Virus record (IMG/VR): IMGVR_UViG_2690316109_000019
Location: 1 to 33,696 of that record
From: a virus
Taxonomy: Duplodnaviria; Heunggongvirae; Uroviricota; Caudoviricetes
DNA: 33,696 bases
Strand: one strand, 5' to 3'
A program made the translations under genes and the position numbers. Each line of letters opens with the position of its first letter. Position 1 is the first letter of the stretch. This document shows, piece by piece, positions 3,863 to 33,696 of the stretch. The notes below the pieces were generated by a model. That model worked only from the letters and a program-made list of their open reading frames with translations, searched no databases and had not been told where the DNA came from.

Positions 3863-3876
3863 GCAGGGGACAGGTC

Positions 3877-7165: not shown

Positions 7166-7197
7166 AAAAAAACCACCCTGGCAGGTGGTTTTTTTGT
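7166..7197. terminator. Bidirectional rho-independent terminator
   Basis: 'aaaaaaaccaccctggcaggtggttttttt': GC stem accacc/ggtggt flanked by an A7 run and a T7 run, so it can terminate both the A operon and the minus-strand small ORF. Confidence 0.7.
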
Positions 7198-7207
7198 TTG
7201 AAGCATA

Positions 7208-7799: not shown

Positions 7800-7818
7800 G
7801 GCGAGGCGGGGAAAGCAC
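7800..7818. other. cos site: P2-type 19-nt cohesive-end sequence
   Basis: Exact match to GGCGAGGCGGGGAAAGCAC, recalled as the P2 cohesive end; lies between gene A and portal gene Q as expected for a P2-like prophage. Confidence 0.7.
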
Positions 7819-7911
7819 TGCGCGCGAGGCCTGCAACCACCAGTGTCATCTTTTTGGAAATATGCTAAAGTATTCATAAGGTTGGATATCTGGCGTACAG
7901 TGAGATAGTTT

Positions 7912-9847: not shown

Positions 9848-9852
9848 TCTTA

Positions 9853-9876
9853 CAGGCTTTGGTGAGCCAAAGCCTG
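9853..9876. terminator. Perfect hairpin between convergent genes (cargo operon and Q)
   Basis: 'caggctttgg tgag ccaaagcctg': 10-bp perfect stem, 4-nt loop; no strong T-run. Confidence 0.5.
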
Positions 9877-9882
9877 CAGGGT

Positions 9883-10902
9883 TTATAACGAGTAATTGTT
9901 AAATGTTATAACTGTTTCACCTATCCATGAGTTCAATTCCTTCATTCGCGATTGTAGATGCCCTAACTCATTCCTGACAAAAACTTTAGCCGCTTTAACT
10001 ACATCGCCAAATCCTCCCGCATTATTAGGCATCATCCCCATCATTTGCGGGGGGACTCGATGGGCACTCATTAGATCTTCCGCGCTGGCTTTTTTGATAT
10101 TAAAAAAATCGTCCTTCGTCGCCACTTCACTGAGCGGGATAATTTTAATGCCGTCGGCTTTTCCCTGTGGGGCATAGAGAAACAGATTTTTAAAGTTGTT
10201 GCGGCCTTTCGACTTGACCATGTTTTCGCGAAGCATTTCGATATCGTTGCGGTCCTGCACGGCATCAGTGACGTACATGATGTATCCGGCATGTGCGCCA
10301 TTTTCGTAATACTTGCGGCGGAACAGCGTGGCCGACTCATTCAGCCAGGCAGAGTTAAGGGCGCTGAGATATTCCGGCAGGCCGTACAGTTCCTGATTAA
10401 TATCCGGCTCCAGCAGGTGAAACACGGAGCCGGGCGCGAAGGCTGTCGGCTCGTTGAAGGACGGCACCCACCAGTAAACATCCTCTTCCACACCACGGCG
10501 GGTATATTTTGCCGGTGAGGTTTCCAGCCTGATAACTTTACCGGTGGTGCTGTAACGCTTTTCCAGAAACGCATTACCGAACACCAGAAAATCCAGCACA
10601 AAGCGGCTGAAATCCTGCTGGGAAAGCCACGGATGCGGGATAAATGTCGACGCCAGAATATTGCGTTTGACGTAAATCGGTGAGCTGTGATGCACGGCAG
10701 CACGCAGGCTTTTTGCCAGACCGGTAAAGCTGACCGGTGGCTCATACCATCTGCCGTTACTGATGCATTCGACGTAATCCAGAATGTCACGGCGGTCGAG
10801 TACCGGCACCGGCTCGCCAAAGGTGAATGCCTCCATTTTCGGGGTGCTGGCGGTCATTTTTTTTGCCGCAGGTTGCGGTGTTTTCCCTTTTTTCTTGCTC
10901 AT
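9883..10902 (-). CDS. Q: Portal protein
   Basis: 339 aa; positioned next to cos and the terminase gene; ATGA overlap with P; P2 gpQ-like size. Confidence 0.9.
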   Translation of the reverse strand: MSKKKGKTPQPAAKKMTASTPKMEAFTFGEPVPVLDRRDILDYVECISNGRWYEPPVSFTGLAKSLRAAVHHSSPIYVKRNILASTFIPHPWLSQQDFSRFVLDFLVFGNAFLEKRYSTTGKVIRLETSPAKYTRRGVEEDVYWWVPSFNEPTAFAPGSVFHLLEPDINQELYGLPEYLSALNSAWLNESATLFRRKYYENGAHAGYIMYVTDAVQDRNDIEMLRENMVKSKGRNNFKNLFLYAPQGKADGIKIIPLSEVATKDDFFNIKKASAEDLMSAHRVPPQMMGMMPNNAGGFGDVVKAAKVFVRNELGHLQSRMKELNSWIGETVITFNNYSL

Positions 10903-18603: not shown

Positions 18604-19048
18604 GTTTAAGCGTTTTGAAGACCGGCTGACCGGACTTATTGAATCGCTGTCACCGTCAGGGCGTCGGCGACTGAGCGCCGAACTGGCGAAACGTCTGCGG
18701 CAGAGTCAGCAGCGTCGGGTGATGGCACAGAAAGCCCCGGACGGCACACCCTACGCGCCACGCCAGCAGCAGAGCGCCAGAAAAAAGACCGGTCGTGTTA
18801 AGCGAAAAATGTTTGCGAAACTTATCACCAGTCGTTTTTTGCATATCCGCGCCAGCCCGGAGCAGGCATCAATGGAATTTTACGGCGGGAAGTCACCGAA
18901 AATCGCCTGCGTGCATCAGTTCGGTCTGTCGGAAGAAAACCGGAAAGACGGTAAGAAAATTGATTATCCGGCGCGTCCTCTGCTCGGCTTTACCGGTGAG
19001 GATGTGCAGATGATTGAAGAGATTATTCTGGCTCACCTGAATCGCTAG
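18596..19048 (+). CDS. S: Tail completion protein S
   Basis: 150 aa, same size and position as P2 gpS. Confidence 0.85.
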   Translation: MNEFKRFEDRLTGLIESLSPSGRRRLSAELAKRLRQSQQRRVMAQKAPDGTPYAPRQQQSARKKTGRVKRKMFAKLITSRFLHIRASPEQASMEFYGGKSPKIACVHQFGLSEENRKDGKKIDYPARPLLGFTGEDVQMIEEIILAHLNR

Positions 19049-19124
19049 CTTTATTGATCTGAGAATATAAGAATGAAATTATTTGATTTAGTATGATTTA
19101 TTTTGAATCTTTACGTTAATAAAT

Positions 19125-19147
19125 AAAAGGCCAGTTATTGGCCTTTT
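19125..19147. terminator. Bidirectional rho-independent terminator between S and the antisense cargo gene
   Basis: 'aaaaggcca gttat tggcctttt': 8-bp stem flanked by A-run and T-run. Confidence 0.7.
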
Positions 19148-19151
19148 ATCA

Positions 19152-20225
19152 TTACTTGCCATTTTTCAATGCGTTGATTAACGATGCTATTTGTTCAATA
19201 CCATCAAATGTAGATGGTATCTTATCATCGGATAGCATGATGTTTGAAAATACTACGTCTTCAAATTTTGAAAGCGCTTCCGGATTGTTTTTCCTTATCT
19301 CTGAGGAATAGTCGCTATAACTCTGAATGAACTGACAAAGGCTCTTTCTGAGTTCTATTTGCATAATCTGAGTTCGTAACGATATATGATTTATCAGTAC
19401 AACTCTAAAGTAATACATAAAAATCAATGTAACTGATGCAAAAGGTAGTGCTGACATAAAATATGTGGCAGCATTTGTCGTTTCGAGAGTTGGTAATTTA
19501 TGCATTCCATAGTATATCAGCGGGGAGGGAATGATTATAGCCAAGATGATAAGAATTATTCTTGATAGCATGATTTCACTTTCTTTCTTTTTGCCAAGTG
19601 AATTAAAGCCATCAAACAATCCAACAAAATTAAATGCGACCTCATACCCTTTTAATGACTCTTTAATTGACTCTATTTTGGCATGTTGCTCCTTTAAGAA
19701 GGAGTCGCACTTTTCGAAAAATTGACGCCCTTCGTTTAAACTATCAATGTATTTTTTATATGTGTCAACATTGCTGGAGCTTAAAACTTCTTTAACCATT
19801 GCTAATGGCAGTTCTCTAAGAGAAAAGTCTATCTGTGCTCTGCTCCGCTCATCGAATTCATTATAGTTATACAGAGCAAAATCCTTGATGGTTCTTAGTG
19901 GTGAAAAGTGAGACTCTATTTCCGGAGAGAGAATGCTTGGTTCAATGATAAATCTAAAAAAGCAAGTGAATATAAGGTTGATGCTGTTGTTATCTTCCCC
20001 CTTTTCTCTTAAGAAACTTTTAAAGGTGTCGCCAATCATAGCAATGTTGTACTGGGATTTTTTGTCCCAATCTTCAGGGTTTTCGGAAATGAAGTTTATT
20101 GCTTGAGCAATTATTTTGTTTCTGTTTGATTCAAAGTTTGTGCTGGGAGTCAGCGTGTTCAAAAAGACCAGATAATCTTTGAACAATTCTTTCATTGTTT
20201 CTGACGAGAAAAAGTAAGTACTCAT
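19152..20225 (-). CDS. AT-rich membrane-anchored cargo protein at the P2 orf30 position, function unknown
   Basis: About 357 aa from ATG 20225 (alternative ATG at 20195); soluble N-terminal region followed by two hydrophobic helices ('IMLSRIILIILAIIIPSPLIYYG', 'YFMSALPFASVTLIFMYYFRVVLINHI') and a C-terminal tail; antisense to the flanking late genes. Confidence 0.7.
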   Translation of the reverse strand: MSTYFFSSETMKELFKDYLVFLNTLTPSTNFESNRNKIIAQAINFISENPEDWDKKSQYNIAMIGDTFKSFLREKGEDNNSINLIFTCFFRFIIEPSILSPEIESHFSPLRTIKDFALYNYNEFDERSRAQIDFSLRELPLAMVKEVLSSSNVDTYKKYIDSLNEGRQFFEKCDSFLKEQHAKIESIKESLKGYEVAFNFVGLFDGFNSLGKKKESEIMLSRIILIILAIIIPSPLIYYGMHKLPTLETTNAATYFMSALPFASVTLIFMYYFRVVLINHISLRTQIMQIELRKSLCQFIQSYSDYSSEIRKNNPEALSKFEDVVFSNIMLSDDKIPSTFDGIEQIASLINALKNGK

Positions 20226-20311
20226 AATGGATTTTGTTGTCCCTTGTTGTTCTGTGCACCAGAAATCGTGGTGTGATTTACTTCGAGATTGTACAGAATC
20301 ATTATTATCGA

Positions 20312-20941
20312 ATGAATGCACAATACAATGAAATTCTTCGCTTTATACGCAATATGATTCGCACTGGCATTATCGTCGAAACCGACCTTAATGCCGGTCG
20401 CTGCCGTGTGCAGACCGGCGGCATGTGCACCGACTGGCTTCAGTGGCTGACCCATCGCGCTGGGCGTTCGCGCACATGGTGGGCACCTTCCGTGGGGGAA
20501 CAGGTGCTGATTCTGGCCGTGGGCGGTGAACTCGACACGGCGTTCGTTCTGCCGGGGATTTATTCCGGCGATAACCCAGCGCCGTCTGCGTCGTCTGATG
20601 CCCTGCATATCCGTTTCCCTGACGGGGCGGTGATTGAGTATGAACCCGAAACCAGTGCACTCACGGTAAGCGGAATTAAAACGGCCAGCGTGACGGCTTC
20701 TGATTCTGTTACTGCCACGGTGCCGGTGGTCATGGTGAAAGCGTCAACCCGCATCACCCTGGACACACCGGAGGTGGTCTGCACCAACAGGCTGATTACC
20801 GGCACGCTGGAAGTACAGAAGGGCGGGACGATGCGTGGCAACATTGAACACACCGGCGGTGAACTCTCATCAAACGGGAAGGTACTGCATACCCATAAAC
20901 ACCCCGGCGACAGCGGCGGCACAACCGGGAGTCCTCTATGA
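20312..20941 (+). CDS. V: Baseplate spike / assembly protein V
   Basis: 209 aa from ATG 20312; P2 gpV size; C-terminal Gly-rich 'HKHPGDSGGTTGSP'. Confidence 0.88.
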   Translation: MNAQYNEILRFIRNMIRTGIIVETDLNAGRCRVQTGGMCTDWLQWLTHRAGRSRTWWAPSVGEQVLILAVGGELDTAFVLPGIYSGDNPAPSASSDALHIRFPDGAVIEYEPETSALTVSGIKTASVTASDSVTATVPVVMVKASTRITLDTPEVVCTNRLITGTLEVQKGGTMRGNIEHTGGELSSNGKVLHTHKHPGDSGGTTGSPL

Positions 20942-22731: not shown

Positions 22732-25050
22732 ATGAGCACAAAATTCAAAACCGTTATCACCACTGCCGGTGCAGCAAAGCTGGCAGCGGCAACCGCACCG
22801 GGAGGGCGGAAGGTCAACATTACCACGATGGCCGTCGGGGATGGCGGTGGTAAATTGCCTGTCCCGGATGCCGGACAGACCGGGCTTATCCATGAAGTCT
22901 GGCGACATGCGCTGAACAAAATCAGCCAGGACAAACGAAACAGTAATTATATTATCGCAGAGCTGGTTATTCCGCCGGAGGTGGGCGGTTTCTGGATGCG
23001 TGAGCTTGGCCTGTACGATGATGCGGGAACGTTAATTGCTGTGGCGAACATGGCCGAAAGTTATAAGCCTGCCCTTGCCGAAGGCTCAGGGCGTTCGCAG
23101 ACCTGCCGCATGGTCATCATCGTCAGCAGTGTGGCCTCAGTGGCGCTGACCATTGACACCACAACGGTGATGGCGACGCAGGATTACGTTGATGACAAAA
23201 TTGCAGAGCACGAACAGTCACGACGTCACCCGGACGCCTCGCTAACCGCAAAAGGTTTTACTCAGTTAAGCAGTGCGACCAACAGCACGTCTGAAACACT
23301 GGCCGCAACGCCGAAAGCGGTTAAGGCCGCTTATGATCTTGCTAACGGGAAATATACCGCGCAGGATGCCACCACAGCGCGAAAAGGTCTTGTCCAGCTC
23401 AGTAGCGCCACCAATAGCGATTCTGAAACGCTTGCGGCAACGCCAAAGGCGGTAAAGGCAGCATATGACCTCGCTAACGGGAAATATACCGCACAGGATG
23501 CCACCACCGCGCGAAAAGGTCTTGTCCAGCTAAGTAGCGCCACCAACAGCGATTCTGAAACGCTGGCCGCAACGCCAAAGGCGGTTAAGACAGCGTATGA
23601 CCTTGCTAACGGGAAATACACTGCACAGGATGCCACCACCGCGCGAAAAGGTCTTGTCCAGCTAAGTAGCGCCACCAACAGTGATTCTGAAACACTGGCC
23701 GCAACACCAAAAGCGGTGAAGTCTGCCTATGACAATGCTGAAAAACGTCTTCAGAAAGATCAGAATGGTGCGGATATTCCGGGAAAGGATACCTTCACGA
23801 AAAATATCGGTGCCTGTCGTGCTTATAGCGGCGCTTTGAGCACTGAAGCCGGAAACTGGACAACCGCTCAGTTTATTGAATGGCTGGATTCCCGTGGTGC
23901 ATTTAATCATCCGTACTGGATGTGCAAAGGCTCCTGGTCATATGCAAATAACAAAATCATTACGGATACCGGATGTGGTGATATCCACCTGGCTGGTTGT
24001 GTCGTCGAGGTCATGGGAACAAAATCTGCAATCACTATTCGAGTGACCACGCCGACAACATCAAGCGGTGGCGGTACAACCAGCGCGCAATTCACTTACA
24101 TTAATCATGGGGACGGCTACTCCCCCGGCTGGCGTCGTGACTGGAATCGTCAGGGCGACGCAATGACCGGAACGATTAATCAGGATGGCGGAAGCCAGAA
24201 TGCCTATATGTCTACGGCCTTATGTTCAGGCACCAGAGGCGGCAAAAAATATCTCAGAAAGTTTCGTGGTGGAGAAGGAGACACTATCTGGCATGAAACA
24301 GTGCAGGGCGGGGTAATTCGCTGGGCGACAGGAAACTATGACGCTCAGGAAGAATTATCACTCAGCTCCGCTTATGGTCTCCGTTCTAGAGGTGAAATTA
24401 CATCACTCAGTGCTAATGGTCTGCGCATTGCTTATGGCAATTATGGATTCTTTATCAGGAATGATGGTGGCAGCACATATTTAATGCTGACGGCCTCTGG
24501 TGATAAATTTGGGACATGGAACGGTTTAAGGCCGCTGACTATCAATAACGCTAATGGCGGAGTGTCAATGGGGCATGGCCTGAGTGTTACTGGTGATATT
24601 GCCTCAAGTACCAAAGTACGTGCCGGTAGCGGGAAAAAGTTCACGGTCAGCAGCAGCAATACATCCACGAAGGAAGCCGCATTCAATTTGTGGGGAAACT
24701 CAAGTCGTCCTGTGGTGGCTGAATTAGGTGATGATGCAGGCTGGCATTTTTACAGTCAGAGAAATACAGATAACAGCATCACTTTTGCTGTTAACGGGCA
24801 GGTATCACCATCTAACTATAGTAATTTTGATTCACGCTATGTCCGGGATATCCGGCTTGGTGGTGCTGCCACATACAAACCTGCGAACAATGGCATGACA
24901 TGGACACATCAGGCACCGTCCGGGTGTGTATATTCCGGCATTATTGTTCAGGATACCGGCTCAAACTCTGCCGATAACATTGGTGGCGTATATTACAGAC
25001 CGGTGCAGAAATACATTAACGGGACTTGGTATAACGTGGCGCAGGTATAA
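22732..25050 (+). CDS. H: Tail fibre protein
   Basis: 772 aa; conserved N-terminal baseplate-attachment region; internal tandem 44-aa repeats; divergent C-terminal region. Confidence 0.92.
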   Translation: MSTKFKTVITTAGAAKLAAATAPGGRKVNITTMAVGDGGGKLPVPDAGQTGLIHEVWRHALNKISQDKRNSNYIIAELVIPPEVGGFWMRELGLYDDAGTLIAVANMAESYKPALAEGSGRSQTCRMVIIVSSVASVALTIDTTTVMATQDYVDDKIAEHEQSRRHPDASLTAKGFTQLSSATNSTSETLAATPKAVKAAYDLANGKYTAQDATTARKGLVQLSSATNSDSETLAATPKAVKAAYDLANGKYTAQDATTARKGLVQLSSATNSDSETLAATPKAVKTAYDLANGKYTAQDATTARKGLVQLSSATNSDSETLAATPKAVKSAYDNAEKRLQKDQNGADIPGKDTFTKNIGACRAYSGALSTEAGNWTTAQFIEWLDSRGAFNHPYWMCKGSWSYANNKIITDTGCGDIHLAGCVVEVMGTKSAITIRVTTPTTSSGGGTTSAQFTYINHGDGYSPGWRRDWNRQGDAMTGTINQDGGSQNAYMSTALCSGTRGGKKYLRKFRGGEGDTIWHETVQGGVIRWATGNYDAQEELSLSSAYGLRSRGEITSLSANGLRIAYGNYGFFIRNDGGSTYLMLTASGDKFGTWNGLRPLTINNANGGVSMGHGLSVTGDIASSTKVRAGSGKKFTVSSSNTSTKEAAFNLWGNSSRPVVAELGDDAGWHFYSQRNTDNSITFAVNGQVSPSNYSNFDSRYVRDIRLGGAATYKPANNGMTWTHQAPSGCVYSGIIVQDTGSNSADNIGGVYYRPVQKYINGTWYNVAQV
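23254..23742 (+). repeat. Tandem 132-bp (44-aa) repeat array inside the tail-fibre gene, about 3.7 copies
   Basis: Repeat units begin at 23254, 23386, 23518 and 23650 (the fourth is partial); unit 'GLVQLSSATNSDSETLAATPKAVKAAYDLANGKYTAQDATTARK'; copies differ mainly at synonymous sites. Confidence 0.9.
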
Positions 25051-25581: not shown

Positions 25582-25794
25582 GTTGTATGAGCTCTGGTGT
25601 GAGCTTACATATCTATGGCACAGAGTAAAGCCTAATCTGAGAGTCCGCTCTGTGCCAGGAGCGGACGTTCGTATGCTTGGCAACTTTGGTTTTCCTGAGT
25701 TCAACTTAACCACCTATGTATCATCGTAGCCTCTAAAGAATAATCATTTTAAAACCTTTTAACATTTGGTAATATGTATTCTATAGTGATCATT

Positions 25795-25830
25795 ATTTCC
25801 TATCTCCACGACAGTTATGAGATAGGAAAT
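25795..25830. promoter_or_regulatory. Perfect 12-bp inverted repeat upstream of the TIR gene (candidate operator)
   Basis: 'atttcctatctc' (25795-25806), 12-nt spacer, 'gagataggaaat' (25819-25830); 44 bp upstream of the TIR start codon, in an AT-rich promoter-like region. Confidence 0.45.
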
Positions 25831-25873
25831 TTAATATAGATGTCGTAATGATGACGATAAAAGTTGAGATGTC

Positions 25874-26839
25874 ATGACCAGTATATTTATATCCTATGCC
25901 AGAGAAGACTTTTTAATTGCAAAAAAACTAACCGAAGAACTAAATCGACATGAGTACAAGGTGTTTTTGGATCAACAATCGATTCAGCTTGGGGCTCATT
26001 GGCAAGAAGATATACTGAAGCATTTAAAAAATGCGGATGTATTTATCGCACTTGTTACTGAACATAGCGATAAGTCTTATTATTTTAATGCAGAGGTTAC
26101 TGGCGCTATATCCTATGTAGCTCATAGCAATCGGGATAAACTTATTTTGCCAGTGGTGCTGGATAAAGAAGTGCTTAATGATAGCGATCTTGGGGCCTTC
26201 CAAGCATTATTCGCACGCTCTGATGATATGACATACCTCGTACATGAAATTGTGAATGCTATCAGCCGCTTCGAAGGTGCCCGACTAGCTCAGGAAGAGA
26301 TAAAAGAAATTCGAGCACAAGTTCTTAAAGATGAATCAGCCGATTACATAAGCGAAACAATTGAGGATCTTAAGGCGCGCGAAAAAGCTGGTCGCCAATT
26401 ATCGTCAAGATGGCATTTTGCTGGATATGCGGCATTAATACTTTCTGTCATTTTCGTATTTATTCTTTGGTATTTGGCTGAGCGTTCATTTGTACAATCA
26501 CCTCTTGATACCACTAGACTGGTTTTCGATGCCATTAAGGGCGTAACGGTTGTTGCGTTACTTTTGGGCTTGGCAAGATATTCATTTTTAATGGCGAAAA
26601 CTCATCAATTAGAAGCTTTGAAGAACGCCGATCGTCTGCACGCCATTTCTTTCGGGAAATTTTATATGCGCGTTTTCTCTACGCAAATATCTCAATCTGA
26701 ATTAAAAGAAGTATTTCAACATTGGAATACTTCAGGGGCGTCAGATTTGTCGCATCTTGATGTAGATAAAATTGACTCGCGATTTATTGAACTCTTTGGG
26801 AAAATTGCATCAAGATTTGATGGCAAAAATAAACCTTAA
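25874..26839 (+). CDS. TIR-domain protein with two C-terminal transmembrane helices, candidate abortive-infection / defence effector
   Basis: 321 aa; N-terminal TIR signature 'IFISYAREDF ... KVFLD ... WQEDIL ... ADVFIALVTEHSDKSYYFNAEV' with a putative catalytic Glu near residue 74; coiled-coil linker; two hydrophobic helices ('AGYAALILSVIFVFILWYLA', 'VTVVALLLGLARYSFLMA'); AT-rich, at the P2 Z/fun cargo position. Confidence 0.85.
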   Translation: MTSIFISYAREDFLIAKKLTEELNRHEYKVFLDQQSIQLGAHWQEDILKHLKNADVFIALVTEHSDKSYYFNAEVTGAISYVAHSNRDKLILPVVLDKEVLNDSDLGAFQALFARSDDMTYLVHEIVNAISRFEGARLAQEEIKEIRAQVLKDESADYISETIEDLKAREKAGRQLSSRWHFAGYAALILSVIFVFILWYLAERSFVQSPLDTTRLVFDAIKGVTVVALLLGLARYSFLMAKTHQLEALKNADRLHAISFGKFYMRVFSTQISQSELKEVFQHWNTSGASDLSHLDVDKIDSRFIELFGKIASRFDGKNKP

Positions 26840-26970
26840 CTAAGGATTCTTCTTGTCAGGGCTGGTAATTAATTTAAGCCCGCTATTCGCTCAAAGCAGA
26901 CTATCAGATTTGATAGCGTTTGGGCTATGTAAATTGTCAGTCGGAAAATGAGTGAGTGCAAGTCAGGACA

Positions 26971-26997
26971 GGCGGGCGAATTGCCCGCCTTTTCTTT
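26971..26997 (+). terminator. Rho-independent terminator after the TIR gene
   Basis: 'ggcgggc gaatt gcccgcc ttttcttt': 7-bp GC stem followed by a T-run. Confidence 0.75.
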
Positions 26998-27093
26998 ATC
27001 TGTTGTTTCATCCACTGACCAGACAGGTCAAATAGCGTCTCAGGCACTGCCCAATAGAAAATAGTTGCACCCATTAACCACGGAGTTAAACGG

Positions 27094-28284
27094 ATGAGTG
27101 ACTATCATCACGGCGTGCAGGTGCTGGAGATTAACGACGGCACCCGCGTCATTTCCACCGTATCCACCGCCATTGTCGGCATGGTCTGCACGGCCAGCGA
27201 TGCGGATGCGGAAATCTTCCCCCTCAATAAACCGGTGCTGATTACCAATGTGCAGAGCGCAATTGCAAAGGCCGGTAAAAAAGGCACGCTGGCGGCATCG
27301 TTGCAGGCCATCGCCGACCAGTCAAAACCGGTCACCGTTGTCGTGCGTGTGGAAGACGGCACCGGCGAAGACGAAGAAACGAAACTCGCGCAGACTGTTT
27401 CCAATATCATCGGAACCACCGACGAAAACGGTCAGTACACCGGACTGAAAGCCCTGCTGGCGGCGGAGTCGGTAACCGGTGTTAAACCGCGTATTCTTGG
27501 TGTGCCGGGGCTGGATACCAAAGAGGTGGCTGTTGCACTGGCATCAGTCTGTCAGAAGCTGCGCGCTTTCGGGTATATCAGCGCATGGGGCTGTAAAACC
27601 ATTTCTGAGGTGAAAGCCTACCGCCAGAATTTCAGCCAGCGTGAGCTGATGGTCATCTGGCCGGATTTCCTCGCATGGGATACGGTCGCCAGTACCACCG
27701 CCACCGCGTATGCCACCGCCCGTGCGCTGGGCCTGCGCGCTAAAATCGACCAGGAGCAGGGCTGGCATAAAACGCTGTCCAACGTCGGGGTAAACGGTGT
27801 TACCGGCATCAGTGCCTCTGTATTCTGGGATTTGCAGGAGTCCGGCACCGATGCTGACCTGTTGAACGAGTCAGGTGTCACAACGCTGATTCGCCGTGAC
27901 GGTTTCCGCTTCTGGGGTAACCGTACCTGCTCTGATGACCCGCTGTTCCTCTTTGAAAACTACACCCGCACCGCGCAGGTGCTGGCCGACACGATGGCTG
28001 AGGCGCACATGTGGGCGGTGGACAAGCCCATCACTGCAACGCTGATTCGCGACATCGTTGACGGCATCAATGCCAAATTCCGTGAGCTGAAAACAAACGG
28101 CTATATCGTGGATGCGACCTGCTGGTTCAGCGAAGAATCCAACGATGCGGAAACCCTCAAGGCCGGAAAACTGTATATCGACTACGACTATACCCCGGTG
28201 CCTCCTCTTGAAAACCTGACCCTGCGCCAGCGTATCACCGATAAATATCTGGCAAATCTGGTCACCTCGGTTAACAGCAATTAA
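27094..28284 (+). CDS. FI: Tail sheath protein
   Basis: 396 aa, same length as P2 FI. Confidence 0.93.
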   Translation: MSDYHHGVQVLEINDGTRVISTVSTAIVGMVCTASDADAEIFPLNKPVLITNVQSAIAKAGKKGTLAASLQAIADQSKPVTVVVRVEDGTGEDEETKLAQTVSNIIGTTDENGQYTGLKALLAAESVTGVKPRILGVPGLDTKEVAVALASVCQKLRAFGYISAWGCKTISEVKAYRQNFSQRELMVIWPDFLAWDTVASTTATAYATARALGLRAKIDQEQGWHKTLSNVGVNGVTGISASVFWDLQESGTDADLLNESGVTTLIRRDGFRFWGNRTCSDDPLFLFENYTRTAQVLADTMAEAHMWAVDKPITATLIRDIVDGINAKFRELKTNGYIVDATCWFSEESNDAETLKAGKLYIDYDYTPVPPLENLTLRQRITDKYLANLVTSVNSN

Positions 28285-28296
28285 GGAGCCTGACCG

Positions 28297-28815
28297 ATGG
28301 CAATGCCGCGCAAACTCAAGTTAATGAACGTCTTTCTGAACGGCTACAGCTATCAGGGCGTTGCAAAGTCCGTCACGCTGCCAAAACTGACCCGTAAGCT
28401 CGAAAACTATCGCGGTGCGGGGATGAACGGCAGCGCACCGGTAGACCTCGGCCTTGATGACGATGCCCTGTCAATGGAGTGGTCGCTCGGTGGTTTCCCG
28501 GATTCGGTTATCTGGGAGCTTTACGCAGCAACCGGTGTGGATGCCGTGCCGATTCGTTTTGCAGGCTCTTACCAGCGCGACGATACCGGCGAAACGGTGG
28601 CCGTCGAGGTGGTCATGCGTGGACGTCAGAAAGAAATCGACACCGGCGAGGGTAAACAGGGAGAAGACACCGAGTCGAAAATCTCTGTGGTCTGCACCTA
28701 TTTCCGGCTGACGATGGGCGGTAAGGAGCTGGTCGAAATCGACACCATCAACATGATTGAGAAGGTGAACGGCGTCGACCGGCTGGAGCAACACCGCCGA
28801 AATATCGGCCTGTGA
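28297..28815 (+). CDS. FII: Tail tube protein
   Basis: 172 aa, same length as P2 FII. Confidence 0.93.
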   Translation: MAMPRKLKLMNVFLNGYSYQGVAKSVTLPKLTRKLENYRGAGMNGSAPVDLGLDDDALSMEWSLGGFPDSVIWELYAATGVDAVPIRFAGSYQRDDTGETVAVEVVMRGRQKEIDTGEGKQGEDTESKISVVCTYFRLTMGGKELVEIDTINMIEKVNGVDRLEQHRRNIGL

Positions 28816-28822
28816 TTTTCAT

Positions 28823-28843
28823 CCGGTCAGCCTGGCTGACCGG
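28823..28843. promoter_or_regulatory. Perfect palindrome between FII and E
   Basis: 'ccggtcagcc t ggctgaccgg': 10-bp perfect inverted repeat; no T-run; possible RNA structure or attenuator. Confidence 0.4.
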
Positions 28844-28871
28844 TTAACCCTGATTCAGAAGTGAGAAAACC

Positions 28872-29147
28872 ATGAACAAAGAAAATGTGATTACCCTGGA
28901 CAATCCGGTCAAGCGTGGTGAGCAGGTTATCGAACAGGTCACGCTGATGAAACCCAATGCCGGGACGCTGCGCGGTGTCAGTCTGGCTGCGGTCGCAAAC
29001 TCCGAAGTCGATGCACTGATTAAAGTGCTGCCGCGCATGACGGCACCGATGCTGACCGAGCAGGAAGTCGCCGCGCTGGAACTGCCTGACCTTGTGGCGC
29101 TGGCCGGTAAGGTGGTCGGTTTTTTGTCGCCGAACTCGGTGCAGTGA
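28872..29147 (+). CDS. E: Tail assembly chaperone E
   Basis: 91 aa, same length as P2 gpE; upstream of the tape-measure gene. Confidence 0.85.
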   Translation: MNKENVITLDNPVKRGEQVIEQVTLMKPNAGTLRGVSLAAVANSEVDALIKVLPRMTAPMLTEQEVAALELPDLVALAGKVVGFLSPNSVQ

Positions 29148-29299
29148 CGTTTCCGAAAAATCTGTCGGTCGATGACCTGATGGCGGATGTGGCAGTGATA
29201 TTTCACTGGCCGCCATCAGAACTGTATTCCATGAGCCTGACCGAACTCATCACATGGCGCGAAAAGGCGCTCCGGCGAAGCGGAAACACGAATGAGTAA
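28872..29299 (+). CDS. E': E+E' tail assembly chaperone made by programmed -1 ribosomal frameshift
   Basis: Slippery heptamer T TTT TTG at 29120-29126 near the end of E; the -1 frame stays open to the TAA at 29297-29299, overlapping the start of T; the equivalent arrangement is known for P2 E/E' and lambda G/GT. Confidence 0.6.
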
Positions 29300-31739
29300 C
29301 AATGTAAAATTACAGGTATTGCTCAGGGCTGTTGACCAGGCATCCCGACCGTTTAAATCCATCCGTACAGCGAGTAAGTCGCTGTCGGGGGATATCCGGG
29401 ACACACAAAAATCACTGCGCGAGCTGAATGGTCACGCATCCCGTATTGAGGGATTTCGCAAGACCAGTGCACAGCTCGCCGTGACTGGTCAGGAACTGAA
29501 AAAAGCCAGACAGGAAGCCGCAGCTCTGGCTGTCCAGTTTAAAAATACTGAACGACCGACAAATGCACAGGCAAAGGCAATGGAAGCCGCGCGTAAAAAT
29601 GCGTCTGAGTTACAGGCGAAATATAACAGCCTGAGATTGTCGGTACAGCGCCAGCGTCAGGAATTGAGTCAGGCGGGTATTAATACCCGTAATCTGGCGC
29701 ATGATGAACGAGGGTTGAAAAACCGTATCAGTGAAACCACCGCACAGCTTAACCGGCAGCGTGACGCGCTGGCGCGTGTCAGTGCGCAACAGGCAAAACT
29801 TAACGCAGTCAAACAGCGTTATCAGGCCGGCAAGGAACTGGCCGGAAATATGGCCTCAGTGGGCGCTGCCGGTGTGGGGATTGCGGCGGCGGGAACGATG
29901 GCCGGAGTTAAGCTGCTGATGCCCGGTTATGAGTTTGCGCAGAAAAACTCAGAATTACAGGCTGTGCTCGGAGTGGCAAAAGACTCCGCCGAAATGGCCG
30001 CGCTCCGCAAACAGGCGCGCCAGCTCGGCGACAACACCGCCGCCTCGGCGGATGATGCAGCCGGTGCGCAGATTATCATTGCAAAAGCCGGTGGGGATGT
30101 TGATGCCATTCAGGCGGCAACGCCGGTCACGCTGAATATGGCGCTGGCGAACCGTCGCACGATGGAAGAAAACGCCGCCCTGTTGATGGGGATGAAATCC
30201 GCCTTTCAGCTTTCAAACGATAAGGTCGCTCATATCGGGGATGTTCTCTCCATGACGATGAACAAAACCGCCGCCGATTTTGACGGCATGAGCGATGCGC
30301 TGACCTATGCCGCACCTGTGGCAAAAAATGCCGGTGTCAGCATTGAAGAAACCGCCGCAATGGTCGGGGCGCTGCATGATGCAAAAATCACAGGCTCAAT
30401 GGCGGGGACGGGAAGCCGTGCCGTGTTAAGTCGCCTGCAGGCACCAACGGGAAAAGCATGGGATGCACTCAAAGAGCTTGGCGTAAAAACCTCAGACAGT
30501 AAGGGGAATACCCGACCAGTATTTACCATTCTGAAAGAAATGCAGGCCAGTTTTGAGAAAAACCGGCTCGGTACTGCCCAGCAGGCTGAATACATGAAAA
30601 CCATTTTCGGGGAGGAGGCCAGCTCAGCCGCCGCCGTGCTGATGACTGCCGCCTCAACCGGAAAGCTGGACAAACTGACCGCTGCGTTTAAAGCCTCAGA
30701 CGGGAAGACCGCCGAGCTGGTAAATATCATGCAGGACAACCTCGGCGGTGACTTTAAAGAGTTTCAGTCCGCTTATGAGGCGGTGGGGACTGACCTGTTT
30801 GACCAGCAGGAAGGCGCACTGCGTAAGCTCACGCAGACGTCCACAAAGTATGTGTTAAAACTCGACGGCTGGATCCAGAAAAACAAATCACTGGCGTCAA
30901 CCATCGGCATCATTGTCGGTGGTGCACTGGCACTGATTGGTGTCATCGGTGCCATTGGCCTCGTAGCCTGGCCGGTTATCACCGGCATCAATGCCATCAT
31001 CGCGGCAGCAGGCGCAATGGGGGCAATCTTCACGACGGTTGGCAGTGCTGTTATGACCGCCATCGGAGCGATTAGCTGGCCGGTTGTGGCCGTGGTGGCC
31101 GCCATTGTCGCCGGGGCGTTGCTTATCCGTAAATACTGGGAGCCTGTCAGCGCATTCTTTGGCGGTGTGGTGGAAGGGCTGAAAGCGGCATTTGCGCCGG
31201 TGGGGGAGCTGTTCACGCCACTGAAACCGGTGTTTGACTGGCTGGGCGAAAAGTTACAGGCCGCGTGGCAGTGGTTTAAAAAACTGATTGCCCCGGTCAA
31301 AGCCACCCAGGACACCCTGAACCGTTGCCGTGACACGGGCGTCATGTTCGGGCAGGCACTGGCTGACGCGCTGATGCTGCCGCTTAATGCGTTCAACAAA
31401 CTGCGCAGCGGTATTGACTGGGTACTGGAAAAACTCGGTGTTATCAACAAAGAGTCAGACACACTTGACCAGACCGCCGCCAGAACTCATGCCGCCACGT
31501 ATGGCACCGGTGGTTATATTCCGGCGACCAGCTCTTATGCAGGCTATCAGGCTTATCAGCCGGTTACGGCACCGGCTGGCCGCTCTTATGTGGACCAGAG
31601 TAAAAACGAATATCACATCAGTCTGACGGGCGGTACTGCGCCGGGGACTCAGCTCGACCGCCAGTTACAGGATGCGCTCGAAAAATACGAGCGGGATAAA
31701 CGTGCGCGCGCCCGTGCCAGCATGATGCATGACGGTTAA
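29292..31739 (+). CDS. T: Tail tape-measure protein
   Basis: 815 aa, same length as P2 gpT; N-terminal coiled-coil region and central Gly/Ala-rich hydrophobic segment. Confidence 0.93.
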   Translation: MSNNVKLQVLLRAVDQASRPFKSIRTASKSLSGDIRDTQKSLRELNGHASRIEGFRKTSAQLAVTGQELKKARQEAAALAVQFKNTERPTNAQAKAMEAARKNASELQAKYNSLRLSVQRQRQELSQAGINTRNLAHDERGLKNRISETTAQLNRQRDALARVSAQQAKLNAVKQRYQAGKELAGNMASVGAAGVGIAAAGTMAGVKLLMPGYEFAQKNSELQAVLGVAKDSAEMAALRKQARQLGDNTAASADDAAGAQIIIAKAGGDVDAIQAATPVTLNMALANRRTMEENAALLMGMKSAFQLSNDKVAHIGDVLSMTMNKTAADFDGMSDALTYAAPVAKNAGVSIEETAAMVGALHDAKITGSMAGTGSRAVLSRLQAPTGKAWDALKELGVKTSDSKGNTRPVFTILKEMQASFEKNRLGTAQQAEYMKTIFGEEASSAAAVLMTAASTGKLDKLTAAFKASDGKTAELVNIMQDNLGGDFKEFQSAYEAVGTDLFDQQEGALRKLTQTSTKYVLKLDGWIQKNKSLASTIGIIVGGALALIGVIGAIGLVAWPVITGINAIIAAAGAMGAIFTTVGSAVMTAIGAISWPVVAVVAAIVAGALLIRKYWEPVSAFFGGVVEGLKAAFAPVGELFTPLKPVFDWLGEKLQAAWQWFKKLIAPVKATQDTLNRCRDTGVMFGQALADALMLPLNAFNKLRSGIDWVLEKLGVINKESDTLDQTAARTHAATYGTGGYIPATSSYAGYQAYQPVTAPAGRSYVDQSKNEYHISLTGGTAPGTQLDRQLQDALEKYERDKRARARASMMHDG

Positions 31740-31753
31740 GGAGGTGACGAAAA

Positions 31754-32233
31754 ATGATGCTCGCGTTAGGTATGTTTGTTTTTATGCGCCAGACGCTGCC
31801 ACACCAGACCATGCAGCGTGAATCAGATTATCGCTGGCCGTCAAATTCCCGTATCGGTAAACGGGATGCCTTTCAGTTTCTCGGTGTTGGCGAGGAAAAC
31901 ATCACGCTTGCCGGTGTGCTTTATCCCGAACTGACCGGCGGAAAGCTGACGATGACCACGCTCAGGCTGATGGCAGAGGAAGGCCGGGCGTGGCCGTTGC
32001 TGGATGGCACAGGCATGATTTACGGCATGTATGTCATCAGCAGGGTGAGTGAAACAGGGAGTATTTTCTTTGCAGACGGCACACCCCGGAAAATTGATTT
32101 TACGCTGTCACTCACCCGCGTGGATGAATCACTGGCCGCGCTTTATGGCGATATCGGTAAACAGGCGGAATCGCTCATCGGTAAAGCTGGCAGTATGGCG
32201 ACCAGATTCACGGGTATGACGGGGGAGGGATAA
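31754..32233 (+). CDS. U: Tail protein U
   Basis: 159 aa, same length as P2 gpU; AAGGAGGTGA ribosome-binding site. Confidence 0.9.
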   Translation: MMLALGMFVFMRQTLPHQTMQRESDYRWPSNSRIGKRDAFQFLGVGEENITLAGVLYPELTGGKLTMTTLRLMAEEGRAWPLLDGTGMIYGMYVISRVSETGSIFFADGTPRKIDFTLSLTRVDESLAALYGDIGKQAESLIGKAGSMATRFTGMTGEG

Positions 32234-33396
32234 TGCTGGATGCACTGACATTTGATGCAGGCAGTACGCTGACGCCGGATTACATGCTGATGCTCGACAG
32301 CAGGGATATTACCGGCAATATCAGCGACCGTCTGATGAGCATGACCCTGACGGATAACCGGGGCTTTGAGGCTGACCAGCTTGATATTGAACTGAACGAC
32401 GCCGACGGGCAGGTCGAACTGCCGGTTCGTGGCGCTGTCCTGACGGTGTATATCGGCTGGAAAGGTTTTGCCCTGGTATGCAAAGGGAAATTTACCGTTG
32501 ATGAGGTTGAACACCGGGGGGCGCCGGATGTGGTCACCATCCGTGCCCGGAGTGCAGATTTTCGCGGGACGCTCAATTCCCGCCGGGAAGGCTCATGGCA
32601 TGACACCACGCTCGGTGCGATTGTTGAGGCGATAGCCTCCCGTAACAGGCTGGAAGCCAGTGTCGCTCCGTCACTGGCCGGAATTAAAATTCCGCACATC
32701 GACCAGTCGCAGGAGTCTGATGCGAAATTCCTGACCCGTCTTGCAGAACGCAACGGCGGTGAGGTCTCGGTAAAAATGGGAAAACTGTTGTTTCTCAAAG
32801 CGGGGCAGGGGGTGACGGCCAGCGGTAAAAAAATCCCGCAGGTCACCATAACCCGCAGCGACGGCGACCGCCACCATTTTGCGATTGCTGACCGTGGAGC
32901 CTATACCGGCGTAACGGCAAAGTGGCTTCACACCAAAGACCCGAAGCCGCAAAAGCAGAAGGTAAAACTGAAACGCAAAAAGAAAGAAAAACACCTGCGC
33001 GCACTGGAGCACCCGAAAGCGAAACCAGTCACGCAGAAGAAAGCGCCAAAAGCACCGGAAGCGCGCGAAGGTGAATACATGGCCGGTGAGGCTGACAACG
33101 TTTTTGCCCTGACTACGGTATATGCCACGAAAGCGCAGGCCATGCGCGCCGCTCAGGCGAAGTGGGATAAACTGCAACGGGGTGTGGCGGAGTTCTCCAT
33201 CAGCCTGGCTACCGGTCGGGCAGATATTTACACGGAAACACCGGTTAAAGTGTCAGGCTTTAAGCGCGTCATAGACGAGCAGGACTGGACAATCACTAAG
33301 GTGACACATTTTCTGAATAATAGCGGCTTCACGACGTCCTTAGAGCTTGAGGTCAGGCTTTCTGATGTGGAGTACGAAACAGAAGATTATGAGTGA
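32233..33396 (+). CDS. D: Tail protein D (late control D family)
   Basis: 387 aa, same length as P2 gpD; ATGA coupling to U. Confidence 0.92.
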   Translation: MLDALTFDAGSTLTPDYMLMLDSRDITGNISDRLMSMTLTDNRGFEADQLDIELNDADGQVELPVRGAVLTVYIGWKGFALVCKGKFTVDEVEHRGAPDVVTIRARSADFRGTLNSRREGSWHDTTLGAIVEAIASRNRLEASVAPSLAGIKIPHIDQSQESDAKFLTRLAERNGGEVSVKMGKLLFLKAGQGVTASGKKIPQVTITRSDGDRHHFAIADRGAYTGVTAKWLHTKDPKPQKQKVKLKRKKKEKHLRALEHPKAKPVTQKKAPKAPEAREGEYMAGEADNVFALTTVYATKAQAMRAAQAKWDKLQRGVAEFSISLATGRADIYTETPVKVSGFKRVIDEQDWTITKVTHFLNNSGFTTSLELEVRLSDVEYETEDYE

Positions 33397-33477
33397 TGTC
33401 TTTTGTTTATCTGTTTGTTTTATAAGGATAAATTAACTAAAATGGCACTATCAACAAAACCGGAAGAGGTGCTCGCG

Positions 33478-33696
33478 ATGTTTCATTGTCCTTTATGCCA
33501 GCATGCCGCACATGCGCGTACAAGCCGCTATATCACTGACACGACAAAAGAGCGTTATCACCAGTGTCAGAACGTGAATTGCAGCGCCACGTTCATCACC
33601 TATGAGTCGGTACAGAGATACATCGTGAAGCCGGGAGAAGTCCACGCCGTAAGGCCGCACCCGTTGCCGTCAGGGCAGCAAATTATGTGGATGTAA
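33478..33696 (+). CDS. ogr: Late gene transcriptional activator Ogr (zinc finger)
   Basis: 72 aa from the internal ATG (MFHCPLCQHAAHARTSRYITDTTKERYHQCQNVNCSATF...); CxxC-N22-CxxC zinc finger; last gene before the attachment site, as in P2; stop codon is the final three bases of the window. Confidence 0.9.
   Translation: MFHCPLCQHAAHARTSRYITDTTKERYHQCQNVNCSATFITYESVQRYIVKPGEVHAVRPHPLPSGQQIMWM

What the first reader, a model, noticed from the sequence alone, without database searches (positions are those of the whole stretch)
29120..29299. Programmed -1 frameshift producing E+E' ahead of the tape-measure gene
Seen in sequence: slippery heptamer T TTT TTG at 29120-29126, seven codons before the E stop. 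The -1 frame is open from there to the TAA at 29297-29299 and encodes '...MADVAVIFHWPPSELYSMSLTELITWREKALRRSGNTNE', overlapping the T start. Established knowledge: conserved tail-chaperone frameshifting (P2 E/E', lambda G/GT). Not novel, but it confirms an intact, probably functional tail module.
Basis: partly seen in the sequence, partly recalled or inferred. Interest (0 to 1): 0.2.

Follow-up and report, generated by a model that had tools for sequence, protein, structure and literature searches.

The report
P2 tail-chaperone E/E+E' frameshift site
This is the well-known programmed -1 ribosomal frameshift that lets a P2-type prophage make two tail-assembly chaperones (E and the longer E+E') from one gene just ahead of its tape-measure gene; it is real and intact, but ordinary.

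Summary
T TTT TTG lies at 29120-29126, in phase with the 91-codon E gene (28872-29147). The -1 frame is open from 29111 to the TAA at 29297-29299. That TAA overlaps the tape-measure (T) start at 29292.

The window is a P2-like prophage. This stretch is 99% identical to phage P2, and identical from 29038 to 29163. The P2 record annotates the E+E' joined CDS and a frameshift site here.

The E part matches Pfam Phage_TAC_7 and the -1 extension matches Phage_P2_GpE.

In 410 related loci, E' is in the -1 frame of E in 402. All 402 carry an in-phase slippery heptamer in the overlap (T6G in 153 of 211 distinct contexts). The heptamer's three wobble bases are invariant where about 96% of wobble sites vary. 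No 3' structure is present or conserved.

One lead goes beyond the literature I could read. A sequence complementary to the 3' tail of 16S rRNA (an SD-like sequence), AGGTGGTC (29110-29117), sits 2 nt upstream. Such a site accompanies T6G in 65% of contexts against 3.6% background, and is absent with other heptamers. T6G alone is a poor shifter in E. coli reporters, so this could be the stimulator. It is untested.

The parts
28872..29147 (+). Gene E, 91 aa: tail assembly chaperone, the product of standard decoding
   Evidence: ORF and translation. Pfam PF10109 Phage_TAC_7, 48 bits against a cut-off of 25. Aligns with the P2 E CDS 19430-19705.
29120..29126 (+). Slippery heptamer T TTT TTG, in phase (Gly83 GGT, Phe84 TTT, Leu85 TTG)
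   Evidence: Invariant in 59 colinear relatives, including its three wobble bases. T6N is present at the junction in 197 of 211 distinct contexts from 402 loci.
29126..29299 (+). E' extension read in the -1 frame after the slip (G29126 is read twice). It is 57 codons, VAELGAVTFPKNLSVDDLMADVAVIFHWPPSELYSMSLTELITWREKALRRSGNTNE, then TAA. Joined to codons 1-85 of E it gives the 142-aa E+E'.
   Evidence: Pfam PF06528 Phage_P2_GpE, 74.6 bits against a cut-off of 23, on residues 104-139 of the fusion. 142 aa matches the published P2 E+E'.
29108..29110 (+). TAA stop in the -1 frame, three codons upstream of the heptamer. It limits the possible shift zone to 29111-29147.
29110..29117 (+). SD-like octamer AGGTGGTC, complementary to 16S rRNA 3' tail positions 1530-1537. 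Candidate 5' modulator of the frameshift (inferred, untested).
   Evidence: Duplex of -14.0 kcal/mol; only 0.29% of positions in 16 window genes have as strong a site in the 15 nt upstream. Wobble G29114 is invariant and G29111 is 95% conserved in 59 relatives. Enrichment and fixed spacing across lineages.
29292..31739 (+). Gene T, tape measure protein (815 aa). Its ATG overlaps the E' stop (ATGAGTAA).
   Evidence: Pfam PF10145 PhageMin_Tail, 1.8e-45. Same length as P2 T.
28297..28815 (+). Gene FII, tail tube protein (172 aa), immediately upstream of E
   Evidence: Pfam PF04985 Phage_tube, 1.1e-59. Corresponds to P2 FII.

Best explanation
This is the programmed -1 ribosomal frameshift site of the E/E+E' tail-assembly-chaperone gene pair of a P2-type (Peduovirus) prophage.

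How it most likely works:
1. Most ribosomes translate E (28872-29147) to its TGA and release the 91-aa gpE.
2. A minority slip one base back on T TTT TTG (29120-29126). This happens while tRNA-Phe (on UUU) and tRNA-Leu (on UUG) occupy the P and A sites.
3. These ribosomes then read GTC GCC GAA... in the -1 frame to TAA 29297-29299. The product is the 142-aa E+E' (...VVGFL|VAELGAVTFPK...).

By analogy with lambda G/GT, the shared E domain binds the tape measure protein T. The E' domain recruits the tail tube protein. The fixed shift rate sets the E:E+E' ratio needed for tail assembly.

Shown here:
- the sequence anatomy;
- orthology and identity to the P2 site;
- family membership of both domains;
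- deep conservation of the -1 architecture and of the heptamer at synonymous sites;
- absence of a 3' RNA structure.

Taken from the literature:
- the shift occurs in P2 at TTTTTTG;
- the product sizes;
- a rate 2-3 times that of lambda.

Inferred:
- tandem slippage (as against a single-tRNA slip);
- the binding roles of E and E';
- that this particular prophage expresses the genes.
For: Anatomy and phase.

Identity to P2: 99% identical, and 100% identical across 29038-29163. The P2 RefSeq record annotates E, the joined E+E' CDS and the frameshift site.

Families: Pfam PF10109 on E and PF06528 on the -1 extension, both above the gathering score. The flanking genes are tube (PF04985) and tape measure (PF10145).

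Literature: PMC3091744 gives the P2 -1 shift at TTTTTTG, 91 and 142 aa, and no downstream hairpin. PMC5009743 gives the lambda G:GT ratio of 30:1, the roles of G and GT, and P2 efficiency 2-3 fold higher, citing Christie 2002.

Comparative:
- tblastn of the fusion finds both halves in two frames in 401 of 418 phage records.
- In 17 diverged phages (E+E' identity down to about 35%) the -1 ORF and an in-phase heptamer are always present: 12 TTTTTTG, the rest TTTTTTT, TTTTTTC, AAATTTT, CCCTTTC and GGGAAAG.
- In 410 loci, E' is -1 relative to E in 402, and all 402 have an in-phase heptamer.

Selection at the nucleotide level: TTG is only 6% of Leu codons in this window, yet it is fixed here. The three wobble bases of the heptamer are invariant in 59 relatives, whereas only 3 of 79 upstream wobble sites are.
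Against: Nothing in the sequence argues against it. Three caveats apply.

- No expression or protein data exist for this prophage.
- T6G is intrinsically a weak shifter in E. coli reporters: 0.118% without a stimulator and 0.765% with the IS3 pseudoknot (PMC4066793 supplement). No 3' structure exists. The roughly 10% level reported for P2 therefore needs a context effect that has not been identified.
- The exact junction residue was not determined here. The P2 record places its site feature one base 3' of the heptamer (19685, equivalent to window 29127).
Confidence: 0.95

Rival explanations
1. E' is a separate small gene, translated from its own start (GTG 29144 or ATG 29180). Many automatic annotations show it this way.
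For: PGAP and several phage records annotate a stand-alone 'GpE family phage tail protein' of about 39-51 aa. An ORF 29144-29299 with a GTG start exists. SD pairing ahead of these starts (-5.0 and -5.3 kcal/mol) is no weaker than ahead of E's own ATG (-5.1).
Against: The candidate Met is not conserved. At that alignment column relatives have M, V, I, W or A. Several relatives (Vibrio MAR, Acidovorax Alfacinha3, Mannheimia PHL101) have no Met upstream of the conserved ADIAxIFHW core. In contrast, the -1 frame is always open back to an in-phase heptamer (402 of 402 loci). The heptamer is under synonymous-site constraint, which independent initiation would not explain. From my own recollection of Christie et al. 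2002 (not readable here), fusion-polypeptide analysis showed a -1 extension of gpE.
Confidence: 0.03
2. The frame change is made by RNA polymerase, not the ribosome. Transcriptional slippage on the T6 run would delete or add a U in a fraction of mRNAs.
For: The site is a homopolymer run. In IMG/VR relatives the run length itself varies (T5, T7, T8) in a few contigs. So the run is at least slippage-prone for polymerases, or for sequencing.
Against: Six residues is short for efficient bacterial transcriptional slippage (my own knowledge). Lineages that lost T6 replaced it with AAATTTT, CCCTTTC, CCCTTTT or GGGAAAG. These are tandem-tRNA slip motifs, not homopolymers. The conserved seventh base and the strict phase also fit the ribosomal model.
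Confidence: 0.04
3. The shift is ribosomal but is not a tandem slip. Only the P-site tRNA-Phe slips, on the U_UUU tetramer (29120-29123), while the A site waits for the rare UUG decoder. This would give ...GFF|VAELG... instead of ...GFL|VAELG...
For: In E. coli reporters the U_UUY tetramers rank second only to A_AAG, whereas the UUUUUUG heptamer is poor. TTG is a rare codon in this phage, 6% of Leu codons.
Against: The G at position 7 is nearly invariant within T6-bearing lineages. The alternatives found are full heptamers. The literature describes the shift as occurring after the terminal G. I have no direct data either way.
Confidence: 0.12
4. Chance: a fortuitous slippery heptamer next to a fortuitously open -1 frame.
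For: In-phase heptamers occur about once per 340 codons. Two others in the window have -1 frames of 37 and 51 codons.
Against: The -1 frame encodes a curated Pfam family at E = 4e-21. The architecture is conserved in 402 of 410 loci.
Confidence: 0.005

Closest known systems
Bacteriophage P2 genes E and E+E' (FETUD tail operon; Christie et al. 2002, J Bacteriol 184:6522)
   Same: Same gene, same position (FII-E-T), same heptamer, same lengths (91 and 142 aa). The DNA is identical for 126 nt around the site (29038-29163).
   Different: There are eight nucleotide differences in the 428-nt E..E' region. Two change an amino acid: E residue 29 is Asn here and Ser in P2, and one E' residue is Ser here (ELYSMSL) and Pro in P2 (ELYPMSL). 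The rest of the prophage differs from P2 in integrase and immunity, tail-fibre tip and three cargo slots.
Phage lambda G/GT tail assembly chaperones (Levin 1993; Xu, Hendrix, Duda 2004, 2013, 2014)
   Same: Two products share an N-terminus and are made by a -1 shift near the end of the gene. That gene lies between the major tail (tube) gene and the tape-measure gene. The ratio-setting role is the same. Neither product is in the virion.
   Different: The heptamer differs: G GGA AAG in lambda (my own knowledge) and T TTT TTG here. The P2 rate is reported as 2-3 times higher. Sequence similarity to lambda G/T is reported as lacking (my own knowledge; not tested here). This is a myovirus tail with a sheath.
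E. coli dnaX -1 frameshift (A AAA AAG with a 5' SD-like sequence and a 3' hairpin; Larsen 1994)
   Same: A bacterial -1 shift on a homopolymeric heptamer, with an internal sequence complementary to the 16S rRNA 3' tail upstream.
   Different: There is no 3' hairpin here. The SD-like element pairs with the GAUCACCU part of the 16S tail and sits closer: the base paired to C1535 is 7 nt from the heptamer, against about 10 nt in dnaX (my own knowledge). The frameshift product is longer, not shorter.

Membership tests
P2 gpE / gpE+E' tail assembly chaperone pair | The N-terminal (0-frame) domain belongs to Pfam PF10109 Phage_TAC_7 | tested here: met
   48 bits against a cut-off of 25, residues 7-85.
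P2 gpE / gpE+E' tail assembly chaperone pair | The -1-frame extension belongs to Pfam PF06528 Phage_P2_GpE | tested here: met
   74.6 bits against a cut-off of 23, residues 104-139 of the fusion.
P2 gpE / gpE+E' tail assembly chaperone pair | The gene lies between the tail tube gene and the tape-measure gene | tested here: met
   FII (PF04985) lies upstream and T (PF10145) downstream. The order is the same as in P2.
P2 gpE / gpE+E' tail assembly chaperone pair | An in-phase X XXY YYZ slippery heptamer lies inside the overlap of the 0 and -1 frames, near the 3' end of E | tested here: met
   T TTT TTG at 29120-29126 is the only in-phase heptamer in the 37-nt overlap.
P2 gpE / gpE+E' tail assembly chaperone pair | The fusion protein is really made (about 10% of E), and both products are essential for tail assembly | not testable with these tools
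   Reported for P2 (and my own recollection of Christie 2002). The site here is sequence-identical to P2, so the result is transferred by inference only.
Lambda G/GT-type conserved tail-chaperone frameshift (Xu et al. 2004) | Two overlapping ORFs between the major tail and tape-measure genes are joined by a -1 (rarely +1) shift, and this is conserved across relatives | tested here: met
   402 of 410 loci are -1, and all of those have a heptamer.
Lambda G/GT-type conserved tail-chaperone frameshift (Xu et al. 2004) | The chaperone domain binds the tape measure and the extension binds the major tail or tube protein | not testable with these tools
   Known for lambda. No solved structure of an E/E' relative was found by sequence.
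dnaX/IS-type stimulated -1 PRF | A 3' stimulatory hairpin or pseudoknot lies 5-9 nt after the heptamer | tested here: not met
   Folding z-scores are -0.48 (80 nt) and +0.50 (40 nt). RNAalifold on 14 lineages predicts 0 pairs. No Rfam family matches. This agrees with the literature.
dnaX/IS-type stimulated -1 PRF | A 5' SD-like sequence lies at a stimulatory distance (6-17 nt in Sharma 2014) | tested here: inconclusive
   A strong site complementary to the 16S rRNA 3' tail is present (-14.0 kcal/mol) and is enriched in T6G lineages. Its core lies 7 nt from the heptamer and the duplex ends 2 nt from it. Function is untested.

The most novel reading that the evidence does not exclude
P2-type phages may compensate for an intrinsically poor slippery heptamer with a 5' stimulator: a sequence complementary to the 3' tail of 16S rRNA (an SD-like sequence).

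- The gap to fill. UUUUUUG gives 0.1-0.8% in E. coli reporters, while P2 is reported at about 10% with no 3' structure.
- The element. Its consensus is RAGGTGRYC. Here it is AGGTGGTC at 29110-29117, and it pairs with 16S 1530-1537.
- Spacing. The base paired to C1535 lies exactly 7 nt upstream of the heptamer in 76 of 97 contexts where that base is paired (99 T6G contexts reach -10 kcal/mol).
- Association. A duplex of -10 kcal/mol or stronger accompanies T6G in 65% of 153 distinct contexts, against 3.6% of background positions. It accompanies T6C and T6A in about 44%. It is absent from all 17 contexts that use other heptamers.
- Origin of the signal. It is written partly in the amino-acid motif (K/E)-V-V/I-G and partly in codon choice. 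Observed mean is -10.9 against -7.6 kcal/mol after synonymous shuffling, and the wobble G of the K/E codon is 88% conserved.

I could not read Christie 2002 or Xu 2004, so I cannot exclude that this was already noted.
Probability: 0.3. Interest if true: 0.35.

Novelty: already known. Interest (0 to 1): 0.12.

Why it matters
As annotation, it matters modestly.

- It shows the prophage carries an uninterrupted FETUD tail operon with the recoding signal intact.
- It flags that automatic pipelines still mis-annotate E' as a separate small gene. About 29% of complete E. coli genomes carry this locus, labelled that way by PGAP.

The only open scientific point is mechanistic. How does a heptamer that shifts at 0.1-0.8% in reporters reach the reported level of about 10% without a 3' structure? 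The conserved upstream sequence complementary to the 16S rRNA 3' tail offers a directly testable answer. It can be disrupted by two synonymous substitutions.

Tried and rejected
- The primary paper could not be read. Christie et al. 2002 was requested by PubMed id and by PMC135442 and neither is held. I relied on PMC3091744 and PMC5009743, which cite it.
- Downstream RNA structure: single-sequence folds are not better than shuffles. RNAalifold on 14 lineages gives no pairs. Rejected as a stimulator.
- Rfam: no family at gathering score anywhere in the window. Only two chance-level hits (E = 0.26 and 0.33) near the site, both on the opposite strand.
- PDB by profile: no solved relative of E/E+E' (best E = 0.23, irrelevant).
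- NCBIfam: no model hit for E or the E' ORF at 1e-3.
- The ribosome-binding-site argument against independent E' initiation turned out to be weak. E's own SD is equally poor. I dropped it in favour of the comparative argument.
- My first frame-picking heuristic chose the E' frame in five loci. I redid it by alignment score.
- I did not run structure prediction or the large protein-database searches. Family membership was already decided by Pfam and by near-identity to P2.

Full report
**1. The observation**

The sequence at 29120-29126 is TTTTTTG. Gene E runs from ATG 28872 to TGA 29145-29147 and encodes 91 aa ending ...AGKVVGFLSPNSVQ.

Position 29120 is a third codon position, so the phase is (GG)T TTT TTG, the canonical X XXY YYZ phase. 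TTG is codon 85 and the stop is codon 92.

The -1 frame carries a TAA at 29108-29110. It is then open from 29111 to TAA 29297-29299. The +1 frame closes nine codons after the E stop.

The two frames therefore overlap for only 37 nt, and that stretch holds exactly one in-phase heptamer. The TAA of the -1 frame overlaps the ATG of the 815-aa tape-measure gene at 29292 (ATGAGTAA).

**2. Is it more than chance?**

The heptamer alone is not significant.
- The + strand of the window has 7 TTTTTTG and 156 X XXY YYZ strings in any phase.
- 17 confidently coding genes (5,502 codons) contain 16 in-phase heptamers.

What is special is the combination.
- This is the only heptamer whose -1 frame (57 codons) extends beyond the host gene's stop.
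- That frame encodes Pfam PF06528 Phage_P2_GpE at E = 4.2e-21.
- The 0-frame part is PF10109 Phage_TAC_7 at E = 1.3e-12.
- The neighbours are a tail tube protein (PF04985) and a tape measure protein (PF10145).

**3. What the window is**

The window is a P2-type prophage, cut from the stop of int (1-996, minus strand) to the stop of ogr (33478-33696). Against P2 (NC_001895) the backbone is 91-97% identical.

The FETUD tail operon (26880-33696) is 95.6% identical. FI, FII, E, T, U, D and ogr have exactly the P2 lengths.

Over 28816-29330 the window is 99% identical to P2, with no difference between 29038 and 29163. The P2 record annotates three things here:
- E (19430-19705);
- a two-piece CDS E+E' (19430-19857; 'shares amino terminus with gpE; -1 frameshift; essential tail protein');
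- a 'site of -1 translational frameshift' feature.

That feature (19685) corresponds to window 29127, one base after the heptamer. This is an annotation detail I could not resolve.

The same 428 nt occur at 95% identity or more in 1,556 records, and overall in 1,582 of 5,426 complete E. coli genomes. PGAP labels them 'phage tail assembly protein | GpE family phage tail protein | tape measure protein', that is, with E' as a separate gene.

**4. Literature**

- PMC3091744 states that in P2 the -1 frameshift occurs at TTTTTTG and produces the 91-aa E and the 142-aa E+E' from one start. It says the site is conserved in Burkholderia P2-like phages and that no downstream hairpin exists in P2 or those phages. 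The fusion reconstructed here (85 + 57 residues) is 142 aa.
- PMC5009743 summarises the lambda paradigm. G and GT are made at 30:1. The G part binds the tape measure. The T part binds the major tail protein. Neither is in virions. [quoted passage not shown] 2002.
- The primary paper is not held. My recollection of its abstract (about 10% efficiency, E' essential, verified with fusion polypeptides) is my own knowledge.

**5. Comparative test**

tblastn of the reconstructed fusion against 50,697 phage records finds 418 records. In 401 of them both halves are present as two pieces in different frames.

I fetched 16 diverged records (E+E' identity 79% down to about 35%). The hosts are Klebsiella, Yersinia, Burkholderia, Stenotrophomonas, Ralstonia, Salmonella, Aeromonas, Vibrio, Acidovorax and Mannheimia. 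In every one:
- the E homologue is followed by a -1 ORF running 32-56 codons past its stop;
- the overlap contains an in-phase slippery heptamer.

Counting the window, 12 of these 17 diverged lineages have TTTTTTG. The others have TTTTTTT (Smp131), TTTTTTC (MAR), AAATTTT (P88), CCCTTTC (Kp4861-1) and GGGAAAG/AAAGGGC (PHL101).

Five scans of IMG/VR, seeded with differently ordered alignments, added 393 loci. Over all 410 loci:
- E' is in the -1 frame of E in 402;
- all 402 carry at least one canonical in-phase heptamer in the overlap.

The 211 distinct junction contexts are T6G 153, T6C 23, T6A 18, CCCTTTC 5, GGGAAAG 5, T7 3, AAATTTT 3 and CCCTTTT 1.

The eight exceptions are:
- an assembly duplication containing an N (one contig, three loci);
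- an indel inside E' (one locus);
- length variants of the T run itself: T5, T7 (an in-frame E-E' fusion; one contig, two loci) and T8 (+1).

The T-run variants are homopolymer errors or mutations exactly at the slip site.

**6. Nucleotide-level selection**

In this window TTG is 6% of Leu codons, TTT 59% of Phe and GGT 33% of Gly. Yet GGT TTT TTG is fixed.

Among 59 distinct colinear relatives (79-100% identical), only 3 of 79 wobble positions in codons 1-79 are invariant. All three wobble positions inside the heptamer are invariant.

The replacement heptamers in other lineages are tandem-slip motifs, not homopolymers. This favours ribosomal slippage over transcriptional slippage.

The Met that automatic annotators use as the E' start is not conserved (M, V, I, W or A at that column). 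Three lineages have no Met before the conserved ADIAxIFHW core. This argues against independent initiation. An argument from ribosome-binding sites does not help, because E's own SD is as weak as those before the internal starts.

**7. Stimulatory elements**

*3' side.* The 40 and 80 nt after the heptamer fold no better than shuffles (z = +0.50 and -0.48). RNAalifold on 14 lineages predicts no pair. Rfam has nothing. This agrees.

*5' side.* Directly upstream lies TAAGGTGGTC. Its AGGTGGTC (29110-29117) is complementary to 16S rRNA 1530-1537 (GAUCACCU, with one G-U pair).
- With the 13-nt 16S tail the duplex is -14.0 kcal/mol.
- Only 0.29% of positions in 16 genes of the window have as strong a site in the 15 nt upstream.
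- The wobble G of GTG (29114) is invariant and the wobble G of AAG (29111) is 95% conserved in the 59 relatives. The flanking wobble sites 29108 and 29117 vary.
- The -1 frame is not translated there, so dual coding cannot explain this conservation.

Among the 17 diverged lineages, 11 of 12 with T6G have a site of -9.3 to -14.0 kcal/mol just upstream. Those with TTTTTTT, CCCTTTC, AAATTTT or GGGAAAG have none.

Over the 211 contexts, a duplex of -10 kcal/mol or stronger within 22 nt occurs as follows:

| Group | Fraction with such a duplex |
|---|---|
| T6G | 65% |
| T6C | 43% |
| T6A | 44% |
| Other heptamers | 0 of 17 |
| Pooled background, same loci | 3.6% |

The spacing is fixed. 99 T6G contexts reach -10 kcal/mol, and in 97 of them a base pairs with C1535; that base lies 7 nt before the heptamer in 76 of the 97.

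Shuffling synonymous codons within E lowers the mean from -10.9 to -7.6 kcal/mol. In 58% of T6G contexts the observed value is in the best 20% of shuffles. So part of the signal comes from the peptide motif (K/E)-V-V/I-G and part from codon choice.

These counts are not corrected for phylogeny.

The lead gains weight from PMC4066793. There UUUUUUG gave 0.118% frameshifting without a stimulator, 0.247% with the IS911 stimulators and 0.765% with the IS3 pseudoknot. It is not among the efficient E. coli motifs. That is far below the level reported for P2. I treat the 5' element as an untested hypothesis (probability about 0.3), not a finding.

**8. Mechanism, with status of each step**

- Shown here: sequence anatomy, orthology to the P2 site, domain families, conservation of the architecture and of the heptamer, absence of a 3' structure.
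- From the literature: P2 shifts -1 at this heptamer, the products are 91 and 142 aa, and the rate is 2-3 times that of lambda.
- Inferred: tandem P/A-site slippage of tRNA-Phe and tRNA-Leu, giving ...GFL|VAELG... The alternative, a single-tRNA slip on U_UUU, would give ...GFF|VAELG...
- Inferred: E binds the tape measure and E' recruits the tube protein, by analogy with lambda G/GT.
- Inferred: the genes are expressed from the Ogr-dependent late promoter of the F operon.

A further inference concerns T. Its ATG has no SD (-3.7 kcal/mol) and overlaps the E' stop. Tape-measure translation may therefore be partly coupled to the frameshifted ribosomes.

**9. Verdict**

This is the already-known P2 E/E+E' programmed -1 frameshift, intact in a P2-like prophage. 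Interest is low (0.12). The 5' element complementary to the 16S rRNA 3' tail is the only aspect that might add to what is known.

Noticed in passing
window 29108-29117: TAAGGTGGTC is a strong internal SD-like sequence (-14.0 kcal/mol with the 16S rRNA 3' tail) that ends 2 nt before the slippery heptamer. It is conserved at wobble sites and co-occurs with T6G across lineages. Its TAA doubles as the upstream stop of the -1 frame.
   Followed up: yes
window 29292-29299: The tape-measure start ATG has essentially no SD (-3.7 kcal/mol) and overlaps the E' stop (ATGAGTAA). In relatives the E' stop and the T start also overlap or abut. This suggests that T translation is coupled to the frameshifted ribosomes.
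   Followed up: partly
window 6893-9966 (ORFs 7912-9240 + and 9230-9847 +): The P2 tin/old slot holds different cargo. One gene is a 442-aa AAA_15/AAA_21 ATPase (PADLOC HEC-02A 1.8e-33, PD-T4-4_A 1.7e-30). It overlaps a 205-aa partner of unknown function (phrog_25533). This is probably a two-gene anti-phage system.
   Followed up: partly
window 25670-26879 (ORF 25874-26839 +): The P2 fun(Z) slot is replaced by a 321-aa protein with an N-terminal TIR domain (Pfam TIR_2, 6.4e-21). It has weak matches to Thoeris ThsB-like and PDC-S66 models and no partner gene nearby.
   Followed up: partly
window 19055-20347 (ORF 19152-20321, minus strand): The P2 orf30 slot holds a 389-aa protein with no Pfam, PADLOC or NCBIfam hit. 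Its only match is phrog_9373, of unknown function.
   Followed up: partly
window 3815-4702 (ORF 3877-4695 +): A non-P2 272-aa ORF sits in the early operon. It matches phrog_887, 'queuine tRNA-ribosyltransferase' (8.8e-87), but no Pfam or NCBIfam model. It may be a DpdA-like enzyme for 7-deazaguanine DNA modification.
   Followed up: no
window 1-1858 and 23734-24995: The integrase, the immunity repressor and cox are heterologous to P2 (at most 72% identical or unalignable). The tail-fibre H C-terminus also differs (772 aa against 669 in P2). So the prophage has a different attachment site, immunity type and probably host range.
   Followed up: no
window 18835-18841 (gene S) and 28494-28500 (gene FII): Two other in-phase slippery heptamers have unusually long open -1 frames: TTTTTTG with 37 codons and TTTCCCG with 51 codons. 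Both -1 frames end inside the host gene. They are probably chance.
   Followed up: no
L261/L347, L281, L339 (IMG/VR contigs): A few relatives have the T run altered at the slip site. T7 gives an in-frame E-E' fusion, T8 puts E' in the +1 frame, and T5 gives an in-frame fusion. These are either homopolymer sequencing errors or natural variants that change the E:E+E' ratio.
   Followed up: partly
L001 686 (P2 NC_001895 19685); E. coli RefSeq hits H91-H98: The P2 record places its frameshift-site feature one base 3' of the heptamer. PGAP and many phage records annotate E' as an independent small CDS instead of a joined E+E'. No complete E. coli genome is more than 99.5% identical to the window's E..E' stretch.
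   Followed up: partly
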